Assembly (NCBI GenBank): GCA_951406725.2
Contig: OX597833.1
Span: 33,046,001-33,110,000, forward strand
Length of the DNA stretch: 64,000 bases
Reading direction: 5' to 3'
From: Octopus vulgaris
Taxonomy: Eukaryota
Shown: positions 4,615 to 44,117 of the stretch, in pieces
Position numbering within the stretch: the stretch's first letter is position 1
How the letters are laid out: each line of letters begins with the position of its first letter
The notes under the pieces: model-generated
What the model was told of the DNA's origin: nothing
Databases searched by the model: none
What the model saw: only the letters and a program-made list of their open reading frames with translations
Made by a program: the position numbers and the translations under genes

Positions 4615-4650
<36 letters not shown>

Positions 4651-4657
4651 TCTGGCA

Positions 4658-4700
4658 TCTAAAGACTAGTTTCAGTGTATTTTCCCCTTATCAATGTAGA
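4658..4700 (-). ncRNA. Degenerate minimal HHR (PLE remnant; next to the insertion site of the ORF1-only element)
   Basis: Minus strand: tctaca-TTGATAA-gggg...cact-GAAA-ctag-TC-tttaga. Two core mismatches and a palindromic stem III. Confidence 0.4.
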
Positions 4701-4716
4701 GTAGCCGAACCCAGCA

Positions 4717-6448
4717 TTTCTCTTTATTATAGGCACAAGGCCTCCATACAGAGGGGACATACACAAACATCCGGGGACGTAAAAACGAATGGAAAATGAT
4801 AATGAAATGAACATAATTATGATGCAAATGAGACGGCCATCACGCCCCCGCTGCGAGACGAACCGGGAATACCTTTACAATTACACTTTACAATTGACTT
4901 TACGATGAAACTTTACAATTAACTTTACAATAAAAACTTTACAAACACACTTTGTGATTAAACTTTACAATTAACTTTAAAATACACTTAAAACCACCTC
5001 TAGTTTCGCTATAATGCGAAACCGTGACCTTTCCTTTCGTTTCCTGCCTTTAAAATGAACGTTCATATGTGTCCTTTGTTTCAACAAAAATAACATTTTA
5101 AATACTTGTTTGTTCATCAATTCATTTGACATTATTTCTTGTTTTTGTTTACAATAAATTACAATGTTCGTGTGCTTCTTTCAATTGTAGTTTTTTCCAC
5201 AATTTTATATACTTACCGTTCTTCAACCTATGTTTTACTTCGTGTTTTTGTCTTCCTCGCAATTTCTTCCATTTTTCCATTTCCATGCTGTTCCAGTACA
5301 TCTCTCCGCTGTGGTTCTTTCATCTGTATGCTTTCGCACTCTTGCTTGTCTGTGCATTCATCCGACTGCACTTTCTCATCCTCTTTCTGTGTATCTTTAT
5401 CATGCGACTCTAGGCACTTTCGTTCAACCTCCTCGTCGCTCTGTAATTCCACCTCTCCTTCTGCTATCTCTGTTGATGGCTCCTCTACATTTTCTGTTCT
5501 TTGTTGCACTTCCTCCTCCATTCCTTTCCTCATCTTTAGTTCTGCTGTTGTTGGAGACTTCTTTCTTTCTCTTTTCCTGCTTTTTGCCTCTGCCAGTTTT
5601 TCTTTATGTGTTATTAAAGGTATATCTACGTGTCTTAATAACTCCTCCATTGGTATACAATCCTTCATTTTGTGCCCTCTCATACCGCATTTGTAACATT
5701 TGGGTGGTCTTCCTGTCAGTATTATCTCCAACCTCTCTCCTGTTGGCAGCTCTATTGTTTCTGGCACTTTCTCATGATATCCTGGGGTCATAGTTCCGAC
5801 TATTTCTGAACCAAATCCCCCAACATTCCAGCATTCGATCTTGCTCACTAACTGAATCTCCAGTTCTGGGTTTTCCTCCTGCAGTCTGGAGCCCAAAATG
5901 GCCACTAACACCCACTCAGGCTCTATCATTGGTAGTATCCGGCGAACTCTGATTTTTACTAATCTCTTCCCTGGTGTGCATGGTAATAGCGTCCGTTTGT
6001 CTCCTTCTATCACCTGTTTAACATTCCGTGCTGCCTCTTCTTCAGGTTCAAATGTTACTGCAACTGTCCCGTAATCGTTTCCCTTTGTGAGGAAGATTAT
6101 TTCCTCGTCAATATAGCTCATTATTAGATCTATTTCTTTTTTTGGAGCTCTCTCAATCTTTCTGTTCTCGTTAGAAAATGTTCTAAATTTTTTTTCCTCT
6201 TTCTTTCTCTCTTCTTCTGGCATGACTAGTTTTATGTTCGTTCCTTCTATTTTCACCATACTGCTGTACTTCCTCAACTTCTCCATATCATACTCCATAT
6301 TCACTTGCTTTATCTTGCGTGTGTTCTCGGTTTCCCACGCTTCGGCGACCTCTGCATACGTCTTCATTTCTTCAGCTTCTCTCGTTCCACCCAACATGAC
6401 GGTCTCGCATCAATCGGTCTCACTTCTGAAAAACAAACTCAAAAGAGC
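4717..6448 (-). mobile_element. Non-autonomous ORF1-only LINE-like retroelement (1.73 kb) with 15-bp TSD
   Basis: TSD TAGCCGAACCCAGCA (4702-4716) / TAGACGAACCCAGCA (6449-6463). Single intact ORF, and a 3' stem-loop plus A-rich end. Confidence 0.85.
5228..6397 (-). CDS. LINE ORF1-like nucleic-acid-binding protein with CCHC zinc knuckle (389 aa)
   Basis: ATG start, uninterrupted frame, CYKCGMRGHKMKDC knuckle. Aligns by eye with ORF1 at 33571-34704 (KIKQVN..LRKYS/KIKKIN..LKKYA; YGTVAVTF/YGTVEVRF; GRPPKC/GRKPRC). Confidence 0.85.
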   Translation of the reverse strand: MLGGTREAEEMKTYAEVAEAWETENTRKIKQVNMEYDMEKLRKYSSMVKIEGTNIKLVMPEEERKKEEKKFRTFSNENRKIERAPKKEIDLIMSYIDEEIIFLTKGNDYGTVAVTFEPEEEAARNVKQVIEGDKRTLLPCTPGKRLVKIRVRRILPMIEPEWVLVAILGSRLQEENPELEIQLVSKIECWNVGGFGSEIVGTMTPGYHEKVPETIELPTGERLEIILTGRPPKCYKCGMRGHKMKDCIPMEELLRHVDIPLITHKEKLAEAKSRKRERKKSPTTAELKMRKGMEEEVQQRTENVEEPSTEIAEGEVELQSDEEVERKCLESHDKDTQKEDEKVQSDECTDKQECESIQMKEPQRRDVLEQHGNGKMEEIARKTKTRSKT

Positions 6449-6547
6449 TAGACGAACCCAGCAGGCGTTGCTACTGACCGTCTTTTCGAAGGATTATTTA
6501 CCTAAAATTCAGTGGGATATATCTACTGGTTTTCAAAAATAGAAAGG

Positions 6548-6696
6548 ATATTAATAGATATTGCCAAGCTAACTTGTCAGTCCAGAAAAATAGAACGATG
6601 GTTATAATGGACACAGGTTCTTGGAGCTAGTCAACGGCAGCATTCGTCCTATTTTTCTGGACTGCCAAGTTAGCTTGGCGATAACAATTAATATTC
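6548..6696. repeat. Short inverted repeat (about 50-bp arms)
   Basis: gccaagctaacttgtcagtccagaaaaatag pairs with ctatttttctggactgccaagttagcttggc. Confidence 0.8.
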
Positions 6697-6739
6697 AGTA
6701 CCGCTGTCGTAGTCTCCTTTAGAGAGACTTAGAAATATA

Positions 6740-6782
<43 letters not shown>

Positions 6783-13760: not shown

Positions 13761-15946
13761 TCATCGTTCAAGAGTCAAAATCAAAATTTCAAAAATCAAA
13801 AATACAAAATATATACTCTGTCCATATGGTATATTTATATTCGACATTTTAAATTTAGCCGCGTGCCTACATAAGTTCATTAGCTCGCTTCTTTGATTCA
13901 AAGAATTATTGTCTTTGAATAAGATGTACATTTTTTCTAATAGACAAAGTTTGCACTTGAAATTATTTTTGTAAGCTCCATGCCTGTATGGTGCCGCCCT
14001 GTCCAGAATGCTCCATGTCACGTTGAAAGGTGGGGCTTTCTTTTCTTTTAGTTCCCAGACGTATTTTGCTAGGCTGGTCTTCCTCCTATTCTCTGGGTAT
14101 TTAAATTAATTTTTATGAGAATAAAATCTTGTTTTAAATGAATTTTCTGAAGCCCCTGTGTATGTCTTGTATTCTGATGAGCCTTCCACTTGCACCTTGG
14201 CTCTATAAACTACTCCTTTCACTAGACATTTCCCTTCTAACGGACAGGAGCTTTCGTTTTTGCAATTGCATTTCTTAATGGGCTCGGCACCATGTCTAAT
14301 CTCAATTAGCTTCCTATTATGTTGGCTAATGTAAGAGGCGAAATTTCTGCAACAAGAATAGCTAACTTTTAGGGTTCTTCTATTAAAACTCCTATAGAAT
14401 TTATGACCCTGCTTAAAATGCTTAGAGACTAATCTCAAAAATTCCTTACCTATATTAGTCTTTACGGCCAAATTGAAAGCCGGGTTGAACCACAAAACTT
14501 TCCTGGTCCTAGTTCTTCGTGCAGCATTATTATCAGCATTAAGCTGGTTGAACTGGATCTTCTCAGAGAGTCCACTATTCTTTAATGCGCTATCGTAATA
14601 AGGTGCAGCATTATGGAATGCTGCCTCGTCCGAAGAAATTGAAGATATTCTTCTACCTACATTGCTGACTAAGTTCCTAAGGATAACTGGTGGATGGTTT
14701 GAATCTTTGCTAATATACGATAGCTTTTCATTGGGCTTACGGAAAGGTTTAAATCTATCCGATCTTACATTAAAATTTACGTCTAAAAAATCTACACTAT
14801 TCAGGTTAGCATCTATCGTAAAGCCCATCCTTTGAAAGAAAGCTATGAGGTCCTTCCTAAGTCTATCTGATTCATGGCCGTTTAGATTATGCGTGGCTAT
14901 AAGGCCGTCATCCCTATATAAACCTGCATCTATAAAAGGGAATTCTATTTTTAGATTATGGAGAATAAAGGCTCCTATGAGCATACATAACTCAGCCCCG
15001 TCGTATGCCCCCATCGGTACATCGAAAAGAGAATCCTCGGTCTTCTTAATCCAGGTGGAATCCTCGAAAAAAAGAAGCGATTTCCTCGCATGCATAATAA
15101 TATCAATTTCCGAGCTATCGATGTTGACATATTGCTTGGCGAAGTCCAATGCCCTTAGGAGCAACGTCCTAGATATTGACGGGTAAAAGTCAATAATGTC
15201 GAATTGTGTGAAACTACAATTATTTTTATAGCTAATACCTTTAAACCACTCTATGACTGACTTACTATTCTTCCAAATTCTCAAGTCCACTTCGCTATCT
15301 AACTTAACTAAAATACGGTCCAAAATATTTTTGCTAATAATTCCTATCTCAGTTTTAGCCAGATTTATCAATCTACATTTGGGGTTTCTACTAAAATTGG
15401 CTTTATGGTCTTTCAGAGTGATAAAAGCTGGTCGTGGTGAAAGATATTCAATCCTATCGCTAATCTTAAGATCGTTAGCTATTCCTCTTGCTTCTAAGTT
15501 CACCTCTTTGTATATATTCGTGTTGTCTTTTTGTATGTGTCTGTGACACTATTCGAAATCAGGCGCTTATAAACGTCCTTATCAAGTGCATATAAGTTCC
15601 TTGTCTTGTCAGAATTAACGAAGATCTTATTCGAGTCGTTAATCTCCTTAATTTTTTCTCTCATATTTTTCTGCAATTCGTTGGTATATTTGCGGAATTT
15701 AATTTTCCTAATAAGCTCGAAAAGGTCTTTCTCGAAGGCTTCTAATTCCGGAATAGGTGGCGGGTTTCTGGGAGATTTAAATCCATATTTGTTTCCTTCT
15801 ATTTTCTGTTTATTATCAAAGAAGAAGGCTTTCCATCTCAATCTTCGAATAAACTCTTCCGTTTTCTCTATAAGACCTTTGAGATATTGTTTCCGTGCAG
15901 GGATAGGTATATTTTTCTGAGAAAAATCCAGCGGGTAAAGTTCCAT
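13761..15946 (-). pseudogene. PLE reverse transcriptase + GIY-YIG endonuclease, with one frameshift and one TAA
   Basis: KNIPIP..RRLRWKAFFF, SDKT, FDIIDFYPSI, PMGAYDGAELC, YRDDG, CNCxxxxxCPL, VVY..YTG, CKLC, CRH. The frameshift lies in the A-run near 15530 and the in-frame TAA is at 14106-14108. Confidence 0.92.
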
Positions 15947-16117
15947 CTTTTTCAGCTGTTTGTTCTTCCTACTTGTGCAGAGTCGCTCAAACTTTTATAA
16001 GGAGCGGGTTACACCGGAGTAAACACATAAATGTGAAACAAGGTGGAAAAAAGAGTACTCAAATACCAGTGGTAGAGTAATATGCTTTATTTTAAGCAGC
16101 AGAAAATTCAACAAAAT

Positions 16118-23930: not shown

Positions 23931-24469
23931 TATTAATATATATATCTCTTATTATTAAAGGCAGATTTTATCTGCCTCCCTTTGTCTCTTATAGAAATCT
24001 ACAATATAGGATTTCTTCAATTACAATTTACCTAGCATTTTTAAGAGTAGAATGCATCGGGTCGTGCCAGGTCCAGTTTTTAAAATTTCAACCCCAATTA
24101 AGCAAAATTTAGAGAAAACTCACATTGTGGTGTGTATGTCAAGTGCTTTTCTTAGTTTGGGCTACAGCACACACACACACACACACAAACGGAGCGAACT
24201 GTTTCACTGACGCTATCACCCTAATTTCTCCCATCGATTAAAGTGAAAGTAATTCACTTTTTGTAGTGAGTGACTCTTTCACTTTGCATTCCCACTTCCT
24301 CTTTACACACATAGACACGCAAATAAATAAATAAAATTGTAAGCTAACGTATGTGTGTGTGTGTGTGTGTGTGGTGTGTGTGTGTGTGTGTGCGTGTATG
24401 TGAGTGTGTGTGTGTGTGTGAGGGTGCGTGTGTGTGTGTGTGCGTGTGTGTGAGTGTGTGACAGGAAAG

Positions 24470-24980
24470 TTTTTTGGGACGAATATAAGACCTAAAGTAT
24501 TTCCAAGTAGCAGAAAGATCGCCCAAAAGTGTATATAGATATTTAAATGTATTTATATATTCATCTATACACAGATGTATGTATAATGTGTGTGTATATA
24601 TTTCCATAGAGGTAACCTTTCACTCCATACAAAGTTTTTTAGGACGAATATAAGATCTAAAGTATATACAAGTAGCAGAAAGATCGCCCAAAAGTGTATA
24701 TAGATATTTAAATGTATTTATATATTCATCTATACACAGATGTATGTATAATGTGTGTGTATATATTTCCATAGAGGTAACCATTCACTCCATACAAAGT
24801 TTTTTAGGACGAAAATAAGATCTAAAGTTATCTCTAAGAAACAGAAAGATCGCCCAAAAGTGTATATAGATATTTAAATGCATTTATATATTCATCTATA
24901 CACACATGTATGTATAATGTGCGTGTATATATTTCCATAGAGGTAACCATTCAATCCATACAAAGTTTTTTAGGACGAAA
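24470..24980. repeat. About 167-bp tandem repeat x3 inside the Helitron
   Basis: aaagtttttt.ggacgaa.ataaga.ctaaagt...agaaagatcgcccaaaagtg recurs at about 167-bp spacing. Confidence 0.9.
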
Positions 24981-25230
24981 ATATTTATATATAAAAGAAA
25001 GGTTGTGTGTCTGTCTACTCCGATTTAGATTCCTAACTACTCCCACATTTTGCGATGCAGTTTAACCAAAACCGGGTATCTTATAGTCGTCATTCATATC
25101 GAGCCCTTCTGGGTATTAGCGCGCGTCTACGATGAGTCTACGATTTTACAAATAATTTACCATCATTTTTTTCCATTTTAATGCATATTTTTTTAAATAA
25201 AGGGAAGTAACTCTCAAACTTCACACCAAT

Positions 25231-25752
25231 ATGCGTGCTCATATGCGACGTAATATCACATCAGCAGCATTTCCTCACACTCTCCTTGCACTTGGCGAAG
25301 GCAAAATACCAGGGGATGAAAATGGTAATATTGCCATCGATTCCATTTGTACCATTGTTAAGACGCCTTCTGATCTCAGAGATGCAGTGTTCCCAGATCT
25401 ACAAGCTAATTATCAGAATATGGATTGGATTGGCAAAAAGGCTATACTGGCCCCAAGGAATAAAACTGTTCACCATATTAATGATGAAATGCTAAAACTC
25501 ATTCCTGGGGAAGTCTATGTATATCAGTCTATCGATACAACTCCTGACCCAGAGGACGTCATCAACTATCCAATAGAGGTACTCAATTCCTTTGAGCACC
25601 CCGGACTACCACCACACTTTCTCAAACTTAAAGTTGGTGCCCCTATAATGCTCATCAGAAATTTGGTTCCCCCAAAACAATGCAATGGCACACGTTTGAT
25701 CGTTAAGTCCTTATCTCCCACCGTAAACTTATATCAATATTTGCCTGAATAA
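25231..25752 (+). pseudogene. Helitron Pif1-family helicase fragment
   Basis: [44 protein letters not shown]. Confidence 0.9.
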
Positions 25753-26296: not shown

Positions 26297-28928
26297 TATA
26301 TGTAAACAAATCAAATTGCGATAAAATCAAAATAATTATAATCGCTGGTATTTCTAACACAAGCCATATATTTTCCACATATCAATACATTAAGGCGAAA
26401 TATGTTCTAGGAACACAGAAGCTGGATAATTTAGTGAAATGAAGATAAAAACGTTTACTAACTCGGTTATTCTCAGACTGCAGTTTCTTTCTTTTCAGCA
26501 ATAAAGATAATTTATTTGCTCAGGGAGAATTCATCAGTGAGAGCCCTGTTTTTCTGAGATCCTAACTCACTAGAAGCATGTGCTTCTAATGATTTACTCT
26601 CTCTAACTAATCAGATCACTGCGCAGACTCCGAACGTCCCGACAAAACTAGGGATTTCTGGTATATCGTCTAGCGCTCAAAATTTATCGAGATATATGTA
26701 AACAAATAAAATTGCGATAAAATCAAAATAATTATAATCGCTGGTATTTCTAACACAAGCCATATACTTTCCATATATCAGTACATTAAGGCGAAATATG
26801 TGCTAGGAACACAGAAGCTGGATAAATTTAGTGAAATGAAGATAAAAACGTTTACTAACTCGGTTATTCTCAGACTGCAGTTTCTTTCTTTTCAGCAATA
26901 AAGATAATTTATTTGCTCAGGGAGAATTCATCAGTGAGAGCCCTGTTTTTCTGAGATCCTAACTCACTAGAAGCATGTGCTTCTAATGATTTACTCTCTC
27001 TAACTAATCAGATCAATGCGCAGACTCCGAACGTCCCGACAAAACTAGGGATTTCTGGTATATCGTCTAGCGCTCAAAATTTATCGAGAAATATGTAAAC
27101 AAATCAAATTGCGATAAAATCAAAATAATTATAATCGCTGGTATTTCTAACACAAGCCATATATTTTCCACATATCAGTACATTAAAGCGAAATATGTGC
27201 TAGGAACACAGAAGCTGGATAAATTTAGTGAATGAAGATAAAAACGTTTACTAACTCGGTTATTCTCAGACTGCAGTTTCTTTCTTTTCAGCAATAAAGA
27301 TAATTTATTTGCTCAGGGAGAATTCATCAGTGAGAGCCCTGTTTTTCTGAGATCCTAACTCACTAGAAGCATGTGCTTCTAATGATTTACTCTCTCTAAC
27401 TAATCAGATCACTGCGCAGACTCCGAACGTCCCGACAAAACTAGGGATTTCTGGTTATATCGTCTAGCGCTCAAAATTTATCGAGAAATATGTAAACAAA
27501 TCAAATTGCGATAAAATCAAAATAATTATAATCGCTGGTATTTCTAACACAAGCCATATATTTTCCACATATCAGTACATTAAGGCGAAATATGTGCTAG
27601 GAACACAGAAGCTGGATAAATTTAGTGAAATGAAGATAAAAACGTTTACTAACTCGGTTATTCTCAGACTGCAGTTTCTTTCTTTTCAGCAATAAAGATA
27701 ATTTATTTGCTCAGGGAGAATTCATCAGTGAGAGCCCTGTTTTTCTGAGATCCTAACTCACTAGAAGCATGTGCTTCTAATGATTTACTCTCTCTAACTA
27801 ATCAGATCACTGCGCAGACTCCGAACGTCCCGACAAAACTAGGGATTTCTGTTATATCGTCTAGCGCTCAAAATTTATCGAGAAATATGTAAACAAATCA
27901 AATTGCGATAAAATAAAAATAATTATAATCGCTGGTATTTCTAACACAAGCCATATATTTTCCATATATCAGTCCATTAAGGCGAAATATGTGCTAGGAA
28001 CACAGAAGCTGGATAAATTTAGTGAAATGAAGCTAAAAACGTGTACTAACTCGGTTATTCTCAGACTGCAGTTTCTTTCTTTTCAGCAATAAAGATAATT
28101 TATTTGCTCAGGGAGAATTCATCAGTGATAGCCCTGTTTTTCTGAGATCCTAACTCACTAGAAGCATGTGCTTCTAATGATTTACTCTCTCTAACTAATC
28201 AGATCACTGCGCAGACTCCGAACGTCCCGACAAAACTAGGGATTTCTGGTATATCGTCTAGCGCTCAAAATTTATCGAGAAATATGTAAACAGATCAAAT
28301 TGCGATAAAATCAAAATAATTATAATCGCTGGTATTTCTAACACAAGCCAGCCGTATATTTTCCATATATCAGTACATTAAGGCGAAATATGTGCTAGGA
28401 ACACAGAAGCTGGATAAATTTAGTGAAATGAAGCTAAAAACGTTTACTAACTCGGTTATTCTCAGACTGCAGTTTCTTTCTTTTCAGCAATAAAGATAAT
28501 TTATTTGCTCAGGGAGAATTCATCAGTGATAGCCCTGTTTTTCTGAGATCCTAACTCACTAGAAGCATGTGCTTCTAATGATTTACTCTCTCTAACTAAT
28601 CAGATCATTGCGCAGACACCGAACGTCCCGACAAAACTAGGGATTTCTGGTATATCGTCTAGCGCTCAAAATTTATCGAGAAATATGTAAACAGATCAAA
28701 TTGCGATAAAATCAAAATAATTATAATCGCTGGTATTTCTAACACAAGCCATATATTTTCCATATATCAGTACATTAAGGCGAAATATGTGCTAGGAACA
28801 CAGAAGCTGGATAAATTTAGTGAAATGAAGATAAAAACGTTTACTAACTCGGTTATTCTCAGACTGCAGTTTCTTTCTTTTCAGCAATAAAGATAATTTA
28901 TTTGCTCAGGGAGAATTCATCAGTGAGA
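26297..28928 (-). repeat. 397-bp tandem array (about 6.6 units), each unit with a type I HHR (retrozyme-like)
   Basis: TTCATCAG occurs at 26530, 26927, 27323, 27721, 28118, 28519 and 28916. Minus strand: tctca-CTGATGA-...-GAAA-ctgcag-TC-tgaga. Flanked by (TA)n. Confidence 0.9.
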
Positions 28929-29362: not shown

Positions 29363-29975
29363 TATATATATACATCTACACATAAAATACAAAATACAAA
29401 GTTATATCTTGATATCACTAGTGATAACAATACTCAAAATATATAACAGACTGGAATTGTTAGCCCCTCTCTTGTAATTTCGATCAATTGTATCTTGTCC
29501 TCCCTCTTGTATAGAAGTGTGGCTACAATTCAGCCTACCTCTACTTCTGGGGAGGGGGGCATTTAAAATTTTTTTCCGGAACGTCCTACGTCCCAGATAT
29601 AAAGGTAAAAATAAAATAAAGTACTCCCTTGCACGCTCCGCTGACTCGAACCTTGCTTCTCTTGTGGCGAATTTACCGCCTCTGATTAGATAACTTTCAT
29701 AGTCGCACCAAGACACTTTTTGAAGGTGCTTTCCTCCATGTTGTTTTATTATTACCCACAAGGGGCGAACATAGATGGAACAATACAATCTGATGATGGG
29801 GTCAGATACACGAATGGGTTTTACAAAAAAGCGAATTTTAAAAATTTACAGAAAAATAACAAAATAGAATGGAGAACAGACCGGAAGACATTACGGATGG
29901 AGTGGAAGCGGGTTTAGCTCGGACCCCACGAGCCCCGCCTCCCCACTGATACTTTGGTTTCGTCTGGTTTTACAT

Positions 29976-32900
29976 TTATGTGGTAACATCCATTCGCAAC
30001 TTTCGTGCTACATTTTTCCATCGTTCTTCATACACTCTCCTAGTCAGGCATATTCTCTCCAGCCCTATCTTCCTTTTCAGGTGAAAGATGAAATAATTCA
30101 TCAAACCAGGGCCGGAGATGAACTTGCCTGACTGTAAACCTTTCATTCTCGTCTTCCATATCACCTCTTTCGCAATTGTTACTACAACGAGAAAACAATT
30201 CTTACCTTCTTTCGCGAGGAAATCTGGTGGGTCAATTTTTGTAATCGATTCAGTCGACAGCTGTACTCTTCGTGTGCTTGACAACAGCTGTTCGGCATAA
30301 ACCCACACCTCAGACACGTCCGAACAATGAACAATAGCGTGCGGGACGGTTTCCCTATCCCGCTCGCATCTTGGACATATCGGACTGTCTTGGCCACCGT
30401 GCCTTGCGAGTTTATCCCGAACAGGTAGAGCTCCTCTGTAGCATTGCCATGCCAGAGACTTCTGGAAGTTGTCCAGTGTCTTCGGCTCGAACGTACGTCG
30501 GAACAGACTGGCCAGCTGATTATCGTCGAGACCTAGGGTTTCCCCCAAGGTATCTTCACATTCCGCCTCTACCAACCTTCTATAGAAGAATGTGGTGGAA
30601 CCCCCACCGCAGGCGTTGCCCGAGCGACGGAATAGCAGGAGAGCCTTGCGACACTCCGTGTACCATGTGCCTAGTTTCCATCTACGATTCAGCCAGGTTT
30701 CCCATCCACCGAAACTAGTGAACTTGGGAAACATCAGTTTTGCTAGCGGAGACCACACCCGTTCACCATCCAGGTAGAGCCACAGATGTCTTAACCTCAG
30801 CGCATGTCTGCGCATCATCAGCCAAGGCATCCCTAGCCCACCCTTTAACGGTTGTTGACAGCAAGTAGAGCGTTTCACAAGTGGTTTCCCGCCCTTCCAC
30901 AAGAAGTAGAAGAGCTGTCTTTCCAACTTGATCAAACACGAATCAGGGCAAGGAACGACGGAAAGGCGGTAGGTGATAACCGATGCGATAAACACATTGG
31001 CCACCTCCGCCCTCCCTTTCAGGGATAGCCACCGCCAAGACCAGGTCTTGGCTACTGCAGCCACCTTGCTCGTTACCTCGCCCCAATTCTTCTCTATCTG
31101 GACCGAACCAGACCCCTAGCAGTTTAATCGGACCCTCCGTCCAACGTCCCACGACGCTGTCAGGAGGCATCGACTTGCCTCTCCAGGTGCCGAGTTGCAA
31201 GCCGACTGACTTTTCGCGATTAACTTTTGCTCCTGTCACCGTCTCGTAAACCTCTATGGCCTTGCCTACTTTACGTAGGTGGTCCATTTCGGTTACGATG
31301 ATGGTGATGTCATCCGCGTACGCTGACACCGATTTTCCACAACCTGGCTGTCTCGGGATGCTGCTCAGTTTTCGCAGTAATGGCTCAAGAGCCATCACAT
31401 ACAAAAGCGGGGAGAGCGGACACCCTTGACGAACCGAGCGCTTGATGTTGAACGGCTTCGACAAGAAGCCGTTCACCCGAACTACCGAGTCGATGTTGTC
31501 GTAAATTTGGATAATCCACCTGAGGAAGCCGAGGCTCAGCCCGAACTGTGCTAGGGCAGATACCAGGTAGCGATGGTCGACCCTATCAAATGCTTTAGAT
31601 TGGTCTAAATGGACCAGTGCTCCACCCTTGCCAGAATCGCTATTAAACCCCTCTATAGTGTACCGCATAAGATGGAGATTATCCTGAATGGTTCTGCCCG
31701 GAACGGCACATGTCTGTGCCTCCCCGATCAGACCATCCGCGACACGCGCCAATCTTTTCGATAACACTTTGGCCAAAATCTTCAACTCTCTGTTTAGCAG
31801 AGTGATGGGCCTAAAATTATCAATGCACTCCCCCTTGCTCGGGTCCTTTCTAACGAGTGTCACTACTCCCCGGCGCACAGATCTGGGTATGAGCCCGTTC
31901 TGCTGCCAGTTCGCATAGACCTCCGCCAGTAGGTGCCCGAACAAGTCTGGCATACTCTTATATAACTCATAGGGTAGACCATCTAAACCCGGCGCCTTGC
32001 CAGCGCCGCAGTCCGCCATCGCCTCAACCACCTCCCCAGGCGTGATTGGCCCTTCACAGCCCTCCGCATCTCGCCCCGATAAGCGCGGCAGCCCGTCGAG
32101 GAGGTCCGTAAAGGCCCTCCTCCTATCCAGTCCGCCGCACTCACCGAAAAGCTGAGCGAAGTGCTCCTGAAAGGCCTCACACATCTCCTCGGGCTCATTT
32201 ATCAACTCACCTCGTTGGTTCGTCATAGATCGAATCGTGGCATCGTTACCACGCTGAGCTTCCACCACTCGGGCCCATCTCACGGCGTTGATTCCTTCAC
32301 AACCCATATGGCGGATCCTAGCCCTGACAATGCAGCCCATGTGTTTGGCCTCGAGGTGCTGGTTTAATACCAGTCTCTTGGACATCACCTGAGCCGCAGA
32401 GCCAGTTTTCAAGGCTTCCTCTAATTCCTTAACTAGAGTAGATTCCCTCCTAGCCTCTCTAGCCTCTCTAGCCACTACTCCTATGCTATATCTAATTGAC
32501 TCGAATTTGATGGCTCGTTTGAGGGCGTACCACCATTTGTTATTAATGATGGTACCCGATAGTGCCCTCTGAATTATAGTCCTAATCCGGTCTTTGTACT
32601 CCTTAATCGCCAAAAGGGACGTATTAAGTTTCCAGTAACCGGACCCTCTATTTTTAACCTTATCTATGTCAAGCTTACAGGTGACCATTTTATGATCACT
32701 GTAGCTGACCAGGTAAAACTGTGGACACTTAGCTATTTTTCTGTCTACTTTTCTAATTAGTATCCTATCTAAATATGACCTGGAAGATCCGTCGCTGTTT
32801 GACCATGTCCACAATGGAGCGTTCGGAAATTCCAACCTATAAGGATCTGCTAGCTCACAGCGGCTTAGCAGTTCCATGAAGCCACTGTTTCCTTTTCTAT

Positions 32901-33372
32901 CTGGACGCGAGCCAACACAATCTACATCCGCTTTGCAAATTGTGTTAAAGTCACCTAGCATAACTAATGAATGCGAAGTACCAAGAAAGTTTTCCAGTTC
33001 TCGAAAATAATCACTTTGCCCTTTATGGTTGGGTGCGTAAATTGCAACCAGTCTGATAACTTTACCGCTACTGAACGTCAAATCCATGACGACCAGCCTA
33101 CCTTCTGGATCTGCAAAAATTAACTTTTTCTCAGAAACCCGGTTTCTTTTTAATAGGACCAACACCCCACCCCCGCCTGTAGGACTGCCAGGAGAGAAAA
33201 AACTCTCGTAGCCGTCAAACAGCGGGAGTAGACCTCTTGGTCCCTCTAACCGGATTTCTGTAGCAACAATAACATCTAAATTACGCGACCTGATATCATT
33301 AAGGAAGCGACCTTGCTTCCAGCTTGATCCCAGGCCGCGCACATTCAAACAACCAACATAAATGTAATCCAT
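29976..33372 (-). CDS. LINE ORF2: APE endonuclease, reverse transcriptase and C-terminal CCHC finger (one frameshift near 31095)
   Basis: LNVRGL, IYAPN, GDFN, YLDRI, SDH; PGLDGL, FRPITLLN, KAFDRV, RQGCPLSP, YADD; CPRC..ETVPHAIVHC. Confidence 0.93.
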
Positions 33373-33380
33373 TACTTACC

Positions 33381-34704
33381 TTATATCAGTGATTCGGTTT
33401 TTTCTTTTTCTTCTTTGTTTGTCTCTTTTTCTGGGCCTCGTGGGGGAGTCTGACGCAGGCCCTCGAGTATATATGGATATGTTATATCGATTCTGAGCGG
33501 GCCCACGTCATGAAAGAATTCGGACTTTATCCGCCCGTAATCCTTCCGGCCTATTCTGTACACTATATAGTCATTTTTTTTTTCCTATTTTTTCCACTTT
33601 GGCCATAGCTGCCAACACATTCCCGAGTCTGTTGTTCGATGCCTTAACGGCCATAAATGAGTTCATCGACTCTCTTTTCTTCTTTTGGATCACTTTGGGA
33701 GGGGTGGTTTCAGTTTTTCTTTTTTTTGTAGTAATTTTTGACCAGCCCTCCTCATTTTTCGTTACCTCGCTCTTTTTTTCCTCCGTCGCTGGTTCCGCTG
33801 TCTCTGTCACCTCCACACCTTCAGCCGTCCCTTCTGGGCCGCCCGGCGCTGCTACTGGTGACACTTCTTCTTCTTTTCCACCTGGTTGAGCTGCTTCCTG
33901 CGGTTTGGGTTGGGGTTGGCATTCCGCCCTTACATGCCCCTTCTTGCCGCAGCCGAAGCACCTCGGCTTTCTGCCCTCTACGAAAACTGTTACTCTATCT
34001 TCTTCGCTTATTTTTAGAGTCTCTGGAATCTCCTCCGGTGTTTGAATTTCTGCCTGGATGGCTATTATTATCCGCTGTCCTTTCCAGAATTCTTCTTCCT
34101 CTACTGTGGCCTGAAGGATGTTTATTTTTTCCTCCAGGCCTACCATAACTGCTGCCACCAGACATTCGGCATCCGCTTCTGGCGGAATATTATTCATGGT
34201 GATTTTTGATGTTCTTTTTCCTCTATACAGGGGGAGGAGAACAATGTTCTCCGATTTTATTGGCTCCATAGATAGTTTTTTAGCTATCTCCTCTGTTGTG
34301 AATCGCACCTCCACGGTGCCGTATCTCTTTCCTCTATTGATGTATGTGATCTTATCCATTATTGGTTTTAAGCAATTTTCGATTTTTTTTTCCTCAATTT
34401 TTTGTATCATTTTGCTTGTTGTATTAAAGGTCTTATAAATTATTATTCTTTTAGCAATTTCTTCCTGTTTTTGGGCGTTTGTGACCACTGTCACTTCCGT
34501 GCCCTCTTTTGTCACACAGTCCGCATATTTCTTTAGGTATTCGACGTTTATTTTTTTGATTTTCTTACCAGCTACTTCTGAAAATTTTTTCGCTGGAGCT
34601 GGAATATCTTTTTTCATTGGCGACACCGCCTCTTTTTTCTTTGGCGACACCGCCGGTGATTCTGCTTCACTAGTCACAGGGGAATATGTGATGGGGGATT
34701 CCAT
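33381..34704 (-). CDS. LINE ORF1 (CCHC zinc knuckle); the 33381-33563 ORF is probably its C-terminus after a homopolymer frameshift near 33575-33583
   Basis: CFGCGKKGHVRAEC knuckle. Likely start MESPITY at 34704. The continuation ends 8 nt before the ORF2 ATG. Confidence 0.85.
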
Positions 34705-35529
34705 CTCGAACAACTGGCTTAACAAGCCCTTGGCACAACCAAGATAAGTGATATTTTTTCCCCCACGGAGGGGGGAACACCACAACGAAGTCCTCGCACG
34801 AAGGCTGACTTCAACAGTTGTACAGCAATAAACAAAGACAGGTAGACACACAGTAGAATATAACGGAGAAAATATATACGATGGCAAAAATATAATAACT
34901 TACTACACACGTGGATTGCTTTCCCCCATGCGTTCAAATCTTTTTTCTCTACATTGTATACTTTATAGACAATAGTCTTTTCTTTAATTTAATTTTTTAT
35001 TATCCATCTGGACTATTCCATTTCTGCACGCTAATTTTAGTTTTAATTTATCCCCATTCATGTGAAACCACTTATTAAAGTTCAAGTCATTGATGCAATT
35101 TTATACCAATTGCTATTTTTACTTTTTTATGTTACGATTATATTACACTTTAGTTTGATTTTAATTATTACTTACTACATATAATTCAATTGTTATAATT
35201 ATTTTTATTGTTAAAGTGAAAGTATCTGACATAAAATAGAGAAATGTTTTTGTTTCACTTTTAACACGTAATACTGAAATAGTGGAGAAGTTATGATATT
35301 GCTATGGGCTCGCTCTAGCCAAAAAGTTGAACATTTTTTCCATGAAACTACATGGACCCTAAGTAAGGCATGTGTAAAATTTGAATGAAATTGGTAGTGT
35401 AGTTCTCAAGTTTTAGGGAAACACACAGACAGACAGACACACATTCTCAGTTTTATATATATATATGTATGTACATATATGTATGTATATATGCATATAT
35501 ATATTATTTATATTATATATATATTATTG

Positions 35530-42629: not shown

Positions 42630-44117
42630 CTAGCAGCATAGCCCGGCGTTGCCCGGGTATGTAGGCAACGACTAATCCCGATCTAGTCCTTTCCCTATAG
42701 GGAACGAAGGCGCATGTGTAGGTTGCAATGTCTTCTCTTCACTCCAATACTTCTGTGTTCCTAGCTGTCCCTTTGGGCGAAAACATGAAAACATCATTGC
42801 GCCTCCCAACGCGTGAACAGCCCACGTAGAGTTGACCGTGGGCGAAGCATTGTTCGCCCAACTGTAACCCAGCGACTTGTAGCGTTTGGCCTTGGGATTT
42901 ATTGATGGACATTGCGAAGCAGAGTTTAACAGGAAACTGAGAACGCCTGAAGAGGATTGGTAGGTCAGCGCCCGACGGTTGAAGGTGCATGCGTGGAATG
43001 AAGACGTCCTCTCCCTTCCCACAACCGGTAAGTATTGTGGCCGTTATTAAATGCGGTGCCAAATGTTTCACAACCAGACGTGTGCCGTTGCACTGTTTAG
43101 GTGGAACCAAATTCCTGATGAGCATAATGGGCGCACCGACTTTTACCTTCAGGATGTGTGGCGGCTGACCTGGCGGTTCAAGTGAATTCAGGAATTCAAC
43201 AGGATAATCGGCAAGCTCGGCGGGGTCTGCTGTCCTATCTATAGATTTGTAGACGTGGACATCACCAAGGTTATGTTGTCTGGTCATGTTTTGTCTCGTT
43301 GACTGCTTGAAGTGGCGGTGTTGGGGGTAAAGTCTCGAATGTAATTTCTTCCTGGTTAGTCTGGAGGTTTCGACGTAATCTTCCTGGTTAGTCTGGAGGT
43401 TTCGACGTAATCTTTGGTTTGAAAATTAAGTCTAGAGTTCCTCCTGTGGGTTGAATTATCGATAGCTGTTTGATAGTTATTTGGGGGAGTGAGTTAAAGA
43501 AGGTCGAGTTGCGTCCCCTAGACAGTCTGTAGTTTGTGTTTAATACACAAATCGGTTTGCTATGGGTGCCACATATGATTTAATTAACCGATTTTTTCCA
43601 GTAATAAAGTATCCTATTGGAATAAAAAGGGCCATATAGCTCCTTGGAGCAGATATGATGCTCGCTGTGAATTTTTTAAAAATTCCTGCCAATTTGTGAA
43701 AGATATTGTCGAAAATATGTCATCTTGAATTTAAACGCGATTTCCCAAAATGGCATGATTTTATCGATTTTTTCTGATGGTAAGGTATTGCATGGAAAAC
43801 TAACGTCAGAATTAAGTTTCTTAGGGTAACATTAAGCTTCACCATGAGTTTGGGGAAAATCGATTGCAAGTTGCGAAAACTACAATAGAAAATGTGTTGC
43901 ATATAAGAAGCTTAGATTCTCGACCCCATGTCGAATTTATCAATTTTTTTCAGAACTGGGGGAACTTTTCAAAACTTTCGCTACGTTAGTTTTGAATTAT
44001 GACATTGGGCTATGTGTGTGTCAAGTTTCATCAGAATCGGTTGAAAGCCGTGGTCAGGGTGAGGGTACAACCTGACAGACACACAGACAGACAAACTGCC
44101 TTTTATATAGAGAGAGA
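42630..44117 (-). mobile_element. Non-autonomous Helitron carrying a Pif1 helicase C-terminal fragment
   Basis: Minus strand has 5' TC at 44117, a 3' hairpin cccgggcaacgccggg followed by CTAG, and an A|T target. Confidence 0.85.
42739..43287 (-). pseudogene. Helitron Pif1-family helicase C-terminus (motifs V-VI)
   Basis: [34 protein letters not shown]. Confidence 0.92.

What the first reader, a model, noticed from the sequence alone, without database searches (positions are those of the whole stretch)
4702..6463. Intact ORF1-only retroelement mobilised as a unit (HAL1-like 'half LINE')
Seen: a 1.73-kb element has a 15-bp TSD (1 mismatch), a 51-nt 5' UTR, an uninterrupted 389-aa zinc-knuckle ORF, an approximately 510-nt 3' UTR with ctttacaatt repeats and no recognisable endonuclease or RT sequence, and a LINE-type 3' stem-loop. 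The protein is clearly homologous to, but very divergent from, ORF1 of the LINE at 33381-34704. Known: ordinary LINE truncation loses the 5' end and keeps ORF2 sequence, the opposite of this. ORF1-only L1 relatives (HAL1) are known in mammals. Inference: this is an independent non-autonomous family that keeps its own ORF1p and borrows ORF2p.
Basis: partly seen in the sequence, partly recalled or inferred. Interest (0 to 1): 0.75.

Follow-up and report, generated by a model that had tools for sequence, protein, structure and literature searches.

The report
Half-LINE family targeting ribozyme repeats
This is an old, probably dead copy of a family of short jumping genes that carry only a predicted RNA-binding protein, land again and again just in front of a predicted self-cutting RNA motif in another small repeat, and likely borrow their copying enzyme from a full-length partner that lands at the same spot.

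Summary
The element is real and belongs to a family. The genome holds seven full-length siblings and many 5'-truncated ones, several with their own target-site duplications. None of 30 tail matches carries ORF2, and the 3' UTR has no ORF2 remnant. ORF1-only proteins group apart from LINE ORF1s (96/92) and are under purifying selection (dN/dS 0.09-0.34).

This copy sits in a hammerhead-bearing repeat family (empty site seen in 8 of 11 other copies), and 27 of 59 family ends lie 5-50 nt before a hammerhead core (background 0.8%). An ORF2-bearing LINE family uses the same register and tail and is the likely partner. The LINE in the window is not.

"Intact" is misleading. The open frame looks accidental: 6 of 7 sequencing runs carry a frameshift at 6187-6190, and the last 14 residues are out of the family frame.

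A motif shared with U1, U2 and U4 upstream regions hints that the element borrows a promoter; this is unproven. The scan reported the same system earlier on other pieces of this genome. Verdict: a HAL1/HeT-A-like element, new variant of a known kind.

The parts
4717..6448 (-). ORF1-only non-autonomous LINE-type retroelement, full length (1732 bp)
   Evidence: Ends shared with siblings; 60 matches among 40 scored of 244 candidates
6449..6463 (-). 5' copy of the 15-bp target-site duplication (carries the mismatch)
4702..4716 (-). 3' copy of the target-site duplication; same sequence as most empty sites
6398..6448 (-). 51-nt T-rich leader
   Evidence: sequence; siblings
5228..6397 (-). ORF1, 389 aa: two predicted RRM/ferredoxin-like domains (about aa 65-142 and 142-231), CCHC knuckle, charged tail
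5657..5698 (-). CCHC zinc knuckle (aa 234-247)
6187..6196 (-). Indel site: 9 bp shorter than siblings in this assembly; one base longer than the window (frameshifted) in 6 of 7 laid runs
5228..5271 (-). Last 14 codons, read out of the family frame
4717..5227 (-). 3' UTR without ORF2 remnant; 13-bp repeat at 4873-4983
4723..4743 (-). 4-bp terminal hairpin followed by AATAAA; no poly(A) tract in the DNA
   Evidence: weak by energy alone
4649..4706 (-). Host repeat, downstream part: decayed type I hammerhead motif, core 22 nt after the element end, cut off by (TA)n
6464..6563 (-). Host repeat, upstream part; includes a decayed TCAGTG-like core at about 6523-6529, 66 nt before the TSD

Best explanation
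This is a likely dead copy of an ORF1-only, non-autonomous LINE-type retrotransposon family that preferentially inserts 16-40 nt upstream of a predicted hammerhead core in short retrozyme-like repeats and likely borrows endonuclease and reverse transcriptase from a target-sharing LINE. SHOWN: a multi-copy family with fixed ends, 5' truncations and 10-19-bp TSDs; no ORF2; purifying selection on ORF1 between families; the target preference; an ORF2-bearing LINE family with the same insertion register and terminal AATAAAGAGAAA; decay of this copy. INFERRED: (1) the element's RNA is coated by its own ORF1p; (2) the partner's ORF2p recognises the short shared tail (pyrimidine tract, 4-bp hairpin, AATAAA), nicks the host repeat and primes reverse transcription, which gives the TSD; (3) repeated insertion at the regenerated site builds mixed head-to-tail arrays. 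MORE SPECULATIVE (about 45%): with only a 51-nt leader, the element is transcribed from an snRNA-type promoter of the host repeat, whose start would lie about 9 nt before the TSD.
For: Family: 7 full-length collinear siblings among 29 other loci. No ORF2: 0 of 30 best tail matches have co-oriented ORF2 upstream. In 40 loci of ORF1 relatives, ORF2 belongs to separate LINE units, except one junction that reads as a deletion between array units. Selection: dN/dS 0.09-0.34 in 16 of 17 ORF1-only pairs, one saturated. Tree: 22 ORF1-only versus 11 LINE ORF1s fall on two sides of one branch, 96/92 (90/89 without the partner row). Related families are recently mobile: ORFs 1332/1332 identical on two contigs. 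Target: 27 of 59 unique ends score 19 or more of 22 for a hammerhead within 5-50 nt, versus 0.8% of random windows and 0.2% of shuffles. 13 of 14 pairs show two-sided changes, including an outer helix that my filter did not select. A related host repeat has a period of about 365 bp and 2049 candidates. Partner: 4 of 23 exact junction matches are ORF2-bearing LINE ends at the same register, 87-89% alike, similar to the family's 81-91%. Promoter hint: a TCAGTG-type core lies at -56 to -60 in U1, U2 and U4 genes and 72-88 nt before the leader in 18 of 23 filled sites (null 1.4%). One LINE end abuts the first base of a U2 gene (L177).
Against: Targeting is not strict: only 14 of 36 family ends hit a library of host-repeat flanks (9 of 14 long copies, 5 of 22 short ones), and the query's own flank missed that library. 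Rfam found no hammerhead in three scans. The covariation set was picked by my own motif filter. The partner shares only about 12 terminal bases plus loose similarity, and no intact partner copy was seen. The promoter matrix scored only 4 of 15 sites above the 95th null percentile, the query at about the 90th, and at least 3 TSD calls in that script were wrong. The TCAGTG core is also one arm of a palindrome in the repeat, and filled sites are not independent. The ORF1 tree is unrooted and samples only LINEs found near these loci. No expression data.
Confidence: 0.85

Rival explanations
1. One-off internal deletion of an ordinary LINE.
For: ORF1 is homologous to LINE ORF1; one relative (L041) has ORF2 sequence behind its ORF1.
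Against: Many siblings share the same layout with their own TSDs. No ORF2 remnant. The L041 junction switches abruptly from ORF1-only 3' UTR to mid-endonuclease sequence. ORF1-only proteins group apart from LINE ORF1s.
Confidence: 0.02
2. A domesticated ORF1 gene kept intact by host selection (L1TD1-like).
For: The frame is open, whereas 12 of 12 siblings with 250 or more ORF bases are frameshifted; the chance of no stop given 81 neutral changes is 0.04. Near-identical sequence occurs under four species labels, and the 5' junction is bridged in runs under labels B and D.
Against: 6 of 7 laid runs are frameshifted near codon 70 (one of these contigs has depth under 5). The copy has a 3-residue loss in a conserved strand, an out-of-frame tail and dN/dS 0.61 against the sibling majority.
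Confidence: 0.04
3. A composite protein-coding retrozyme: the hammerhead repeat plus ORF1 move together by Penelope-type machinery.
For: Strong association with hammerhead repeats.
Against: TSDs bracket the ORF1 element only; empty sites are common. The same family sits in at least three different host-repeat families and at unrelated sites.
Confidence: 0.04
4. Same family and target, but the benefit is the ribozyme rather than a promoter: the downstream hammerhead trims the read-through 3' end, or an upstream one frees the 5' end as in R2, or the repeat is simply a harmless landing site recognised by sequence. This rival concerns only the transcription step and is compatible with the main reading.
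For: Insertion leaves the hammerhead whole about 50 nt downstream. Host repeats are often tandem. Other Tx1-type elements target transposons with no promoter link claimed (PMC4494074, passages and section 15).
Against: The elements have their own AATAAA. Related families stack in a repeat with no hammerhead found and at a U2 start, which points to something other than the ribozyme.
Confidence: 0.4

Closest known systems
HAL1 (half-L1) of mammals; also Ag-Sponge (PMC5753468 and PMC5786205, passages read; Bao and Jurka 2010 not held)
   Same: Non-autonomous LINE derivative that encodes only ORF1p and depends on an autonomous partner.
   Different: Not a mammalian L1 derivative: RRM-RRM-CCHC-type ORF1, no poly(A) tract in the DNA, target preference, mixed tandem arrays. 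HAL1 is described as arising several times independently; here the sampled families fit one old lineage.
HeT-A and other ORF1-only telomeric elements of Drosophila (bioRxiv 10.1101/2025.06.09.658640, two passages; PMC5786205 passage)
   Same: ORF1-only elements in head-to-tail arrays with ORF2-bearing partners; ORF1-only lineages that give rise to new ORF1-only families.
   Different: Jockey clade at telomeres there; here dispersed interstitial sites with TSDs inside another mobile repeat.
Target-specific Tx1-clade LINEs: Tx1L in Tx1D, Keno in U2 genes, Tx1-Mar with SINEU in Mariner-N4 (PMC4494074, passages and section 15)
   Same: Preferential insertion into a multicopy repeat, with non-autonomous passengers sharing the target. 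That paper counts a family as target-specific above 20% of flanks; this family reaches 39-46%.
   Different: The target here is a hammerhead-bearing retrozyme-like repeat and the passenger codes for a protein; neither appears in the passages read.
Metazoan non-LTR retrozymes (PMC7229834, passages; bioRxiv 10.64898/2026.07.22.740005, part 1 of 5 plus term search)
   Same: The host repeat matches: about 365-nt tandem units, type I hammerhead, short stem III.
   Different: It is the landing site, not the element. In the passages and term searches seen, neither paper mentions octopus, and the preprint does not mention Tx1.

Membership tests
ORF1-present non-autonomous LINE (HAL1-like kind) | Encodes only an ORF1 protein; no endonuclease or RT | tested here: met
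ORF1-present non-autonomous LINE (HAL1-like kind) | Multi-copy family mobilised as a unit, with TSDs and 5' truncations | tested here: met
ORF1-present non-autonomous LINE (HAL1-like kind) | ORF1 kept by purifying selection | tested here: met
   dN/dS 0.09-0.34 between families; not for this copy (0.61)
ORF1-present non-autonomous LINE (HAL1-like kind) | 3' end shared with an autonomous partner | tested here: inconclusive
   Same register and about 12 terminal bases with the L206/L208/L220/L224 family, otherwise loose
ORF1-present non-autonomous LINE (HAL1-like kind) | Mobilisation in trans by partner ORF2p | not testable with these tools
   Needs a retrotransposition assay
HAL1 proper (mammalian L1-derived) | Descent from mammalian L1 ORF1, with a poly(A) tail | tested here: not met
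   No L1-type Pfam match, CCHC knuckle present, no poly(A) tract; L1 features recalled
Tx1 clade (partner LINEs) | APE endonuclease + RT + C-terminal zinc motif in ORF2, knuckle ORF1 | tested here: met
   Window LINE: Exo_endo_phos, RVT_1, zf-RVT; partner family is homologous
Tx1 clade (partner LINEs) | RT phylogeny with reference Tx1 elements | not tested
Type I hammerhead / non-LTR retrozyme (host repeat) | Core bases with stems I-III supported by compensatory changes | tested here: met
   (rows chosen by my motif filter)
Type I hammerhead / non-LTR retrozyme (host repeat) | Match to an Rfam hammerhead model | tested here: inconclusive
   No hit (14 low rows hidden)
Type I hammerhead / non-LTR retrozyme (host repeat) | 170-400-nt tandem units | tested here: met
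   About 365-bp period for the L053-type repeat; period not measured for the query's own host family
Type I hammerhead / non-LTR retrozyme (host repeat) | Self-cleavage and circular RNA | not testable with these tools
   Needs in vitro and RNA data

The most novel reading that the evidence does not exclude
One ancient ORF1-only lineage has lived beside a clade of LINEs whose ORF2p is guided to snRNA-type Pol II promoters rather than to a fixed sequence. It would insert at or just after the start site of hammerhead retrozymes and U2 genes and use those promoters. That would make it a parasite of a parasite of a parasite, and a Pol II snRNA-promoter counterpart of Pol III-start targeting by Ty3 or TRE5 (comparison recalled).
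Probability: 0.35. Interest if true: 0.75.

Novelty: new variant of a known kind. Interest (0 to 1): 0.5.

Why it matters
ORF1-only retroelements are described from a few lineages (HAL1, HeT-A, Ag-Sponge). Here they form an old radiation with recently mobile members and ORF1 under selection, so the question of why a non-autonomous element keeps its own ORF1p becomes testable with matched partner/passenger pairs. The target preference spans host repeats that differ in sequence but share a position relative to a hammerhead and a promoter-like motif. That suggests a targeting rule not described in the papers I saw. This particular copy matters little and is a caution: its open frame looks accidental.

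Tried and rejected
Rfam scans found no hammerhead or other credible RNA family at the targets; hits were microsatellite noise. The word-based protein search returned only the window's own protein. The profile search found 585 unnamed proteins at E 1e-10 or better, with no names or context. Foldseek gave no match at E 0.001 or better; its top rows are tandem-RRM proteins. VIA best Z was 7.7, a common fold. No RNA holder was listed, which says nothing about expression. The first partner search found hammerhead-targeting LINEs that insert about 4-10 nt further upstream than this family; set aside in favour of the family. L212 looked like a LINE with the ORF1-only tail but is a LINE followed by a truncated ORF1-only copy. 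The window LINE was rejected as partner. The promoter weight matrix was weak. Two primary papers were not held (Bao and Jurka 2010; Coats et al. 1994, known only from a passage in PMC2220036). No complex prediction was run. Ten literature searches listed nothing on ORF1-only Tx1-type elements in cephalopods or on LINEs targeting hammerhead repeats. Repbase entries, subscription journals and supplements were not seen and may already hold these families.

Full report
OBSERVATION. The element lies on the minus strand at 4717-6448, between 15-bp direct repeats with one mismatch. It has a 51-nt leader, a 389-aa open frame, and a 511-nt 3' UTR ending in AATAAAGAGAAA with no poly(A) tract. The protein has a CCHC knuckle and is 29% identical over 241 aa to ORF1 of the LINE at about 29.7-34.9 kb. 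A model built from 25 aligned relatives (mean pLDDT 73) shows two RRM/ferredoxin-like domains before the knuckle. The structural matches are weak and generic, so RNA binding is inferred. Five ORF2 queries found nothing in the 3' UTR (best E 0.19), and blastn against five LINEs found nothing (best E 0.48). The genome has 2.8 Gb in 227 contigs; earlier scan notes call it octopus, which I did not test.

IT IS A FAMILY. A DNA search gave 60 matches from 40 scored of 244 candidates. Among the 29 other loci fetched (two pairs overlap), L002, L006, L009, L010, L016, L017 and L019 have both ends and the same ORF1-3'UTR layout. Many others are 5'-truncated. Clear TSDs of 10-18 bp were seen in several full and truncated copies. 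Of the 30 best matches to the last 189 bases, 0 have co-oriented ORF2 upstream. A protein search listed 150 ORF1 relatives, of which I fetched 40. These are 1.7-1.9-kb ORF1-only units, often stacked head to tail with one another and with separate full LINEs. One locus, L041, has ORF2 sequence behind such an ORF1, but the junction jumps from ORF1-only 3' UTR into mid-endonuclease and reads as a deletion within an array.

SELECTION AND DESCENT. Between ORF1-only families, dN/dS is 0.09-0.34 in 16 of 17 pairs (one saturated; many have dS above 1). Some related families are very young, with ORFs 1332/1332 identical on two contigs. In a tree of the ORF1 core, 22 ORF1-only rows and 11 LINE rows fall on two sides of one branch (96/92; 90/89 with 10 LINE rows). 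This fits one old origin, but the tree is unrooted and the LINE sample is limited.

THIS COPY IS NOT INTACT. Against the sibling majority it differs at 81 of 1142 ORF positions, with dN/dS 0.61. It lacks 9 bp near 6188 and has a 1-base insertion near 5271 that puts the last 14 residues out of the family frame. All 12 siblings with 250 or more ORF bases covered are frameshifted. In contigs from seven public runs under four species labels, six have one extra base at 6187-6190, which shifts the frame near codon 70, and one matches the window (one of the six has depth 4.2). The simplest reading is a frameshifting deletion in an old insertion, with a second 1-base loss reopening the frame in one haplotype. 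The 5' junction is bridged without differences in runs under labels B and D, so the insertion is shared among closely related species labels.

THE TARGET. Many siblings share downstream flanks that read as a type I hammerhead: stem I, CUGANGA-like core, 4-bp stem II, GAAA, short palindromic stem III, UH. Of 59 unique element ends, 27 score 19 or more of 22 within 5-50 nt, against 0.8% of 3000 random windows and 0.2% of shuffles; for close relatives the count is 14 of 33. On 23 motifs chosen by my filter, 92.9% of cells pair (69.7% shuffled), and 13 of 14 pairs change on both sides, including an outer helix that the filter did not use. Rfam did not recognise them. One such host is a tandem repeat of about 365 bp with 2049 candidates, in the size range of metazoan retrozymes (PMC7229834, passages). 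The query's own host family has 618 candidates; 8 of 11 other copies show the empty site, and the query's hammerhead is decayed and cut off by (TA)n. The preference is partial: 9 of 14 long copies but 5 of 22 short ones hit a library of host flanks (Fisher p 0.018). By eye, four more long copies, including the query, are also at target-type sites.

THE PARTNER. ORF2-bearing LINEs also end just before these hammerheads. An exact search for element tails at two host sites gave 23 junctions. Four are ends of one LINE family (87-89% alike) at the same register as the query's family, three of them with the same terminal AATAAAGAGAAA. A back-to-back copy of that family (82-94% alike in ORF2) has an ORF1 only 27% identical to the query's, which falls among LINE ORF1s. 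The ORF1-only family therefore does not derive from its likely partner. Across 12 hand-picked tails of LINEs and ORF1-only elements, 11 have a 4-bp hairpin just before AATAAA with changed sequence (2.5 expected), a plausible recognition signal. The window's LINE uses another target, shared with young ORF1-only arrays.

TRANSCRIPTION. Earlier scan notes proposed that these elements borrow an snRNA-type promoter; I tested this in part. U1, U2 and U4 genes of this genome share a TCAGT core at -56 to -60. A strict version matched 3 of 3 U1, 6 of 12 U2 and 5 of 6 U4 loci, and 18 of 23 filled sites at 72-88 nt before the leader (null 1.4%). In this family it lies about 66 nt before the TSD, which puts the predicted start about 9 nt before the TSD. 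One LINE end abuts the first base of a U2 gene (L177). Newt satellite 2, a hammerhead repeat, is reported to use an snRNA-type promoter (passage in PMC2220036; primary paper not held). Against this: the weight-matrix test was weak (4 of 15 above the 95th percentile), the core is one arm of a palindrome, the sites are related, and there are no RNA data. I put this step at about 45%.

COMPARISON AND NOVELTY. It works like HAL1, HeT-A and Ag-Sponge, the ORF1-present non-autonomous LINEs (PMC5786205, PMC5753468; passages), but is not HAL1 proper. ORF1-only lineages that beget new families are reported for Drosophila telomeric elements (bioRxiv 10.1101/2025.06.09.658640; passages). Tx1-clade elements target other transposons and U2 genes and carry passengers along (PMC4494074; passages, section 15); my Tx1 label for the partners is by recalled resemblance, not by RT phylogeny. 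Ten searches listed no report of LINEs or ORF1-only elements targeting hammerhead repeats; Repbase and supplements were not seen. The scan itself noted this system before on other pieces of the genome; those notes are not independent support.

VERDICT. A real ORF1-only, target-preferring retroelement family; this copy is an old decaying member. New variant of a known kind; interest 0.5.

Noticed in passing
window 6507-6740: A very high-copy repeat with 51-nt inverted arms (6548-6694) lies in the upstream flank; two runs (X2, X5) continue differently after 6506, suggesting a polymorphic insertion.
   Followed up: partly
window about 29750-34940 (-): Full-length LINE with a frameshifted ORF2, inserted in a non-hammerhead repeat that is also the landing site of young mixed ORF1-only arrays such as L062-L067.
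   Followed up: partly
L177:1-1500 (G000:C3:20816122-20819315): A LINE 3' end sits directly before the first base of a U2 snRNA gene.
   Followed up: partly
L011/L012/L015 (G000:C18:48.98-48.99 Mb): Family copies lie inside a U1 snRNA gene cluster, about 500-630 bp upstream of U1 genes and facing away. L011 has about 20 nt of host-repeat-like leader without the rest of the repeat upstream, as a borrowed-promoter transcript might leave.
   Followed up: partly
family-wide: Long copies are mostly at host-repeat sites and short 5'-truncated ones mostly elsewhere; either selection or target-assisted completion of the 5' end could explain it.
   Followed up: partly
L126-L129 (G000:C9:59.20-59.24 Mb; C5:29.18-29.21 Mb): Head-to-tail arrays of near-identical full LINEs with a 5.28-kb period, some with long open ORF2.
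   Followed up: no
L229 (G000:C2:56800400-56807500): Two copies of the likely partner LINE family back to back; the inverted one has an ORF1 core without stops.
   Followed up: partly
window 14106-15994 (-): RT-type ORFs resembling a Penelope-like element (label recalled, not tested); no hammerhead found next to it.
   Followed up: no
window 26298-28928 and 24466-24983: Tandem arrays: 397-bp unit x 6.6 (98% matches) and 165-bp unit x 3.1.
   Followed up: no
window 25201-25752 and 42739-43425 (-): Two frames that look like PIF1/Helitron helicase fragments (resemblance recalled, not tested).
   Followed up: no
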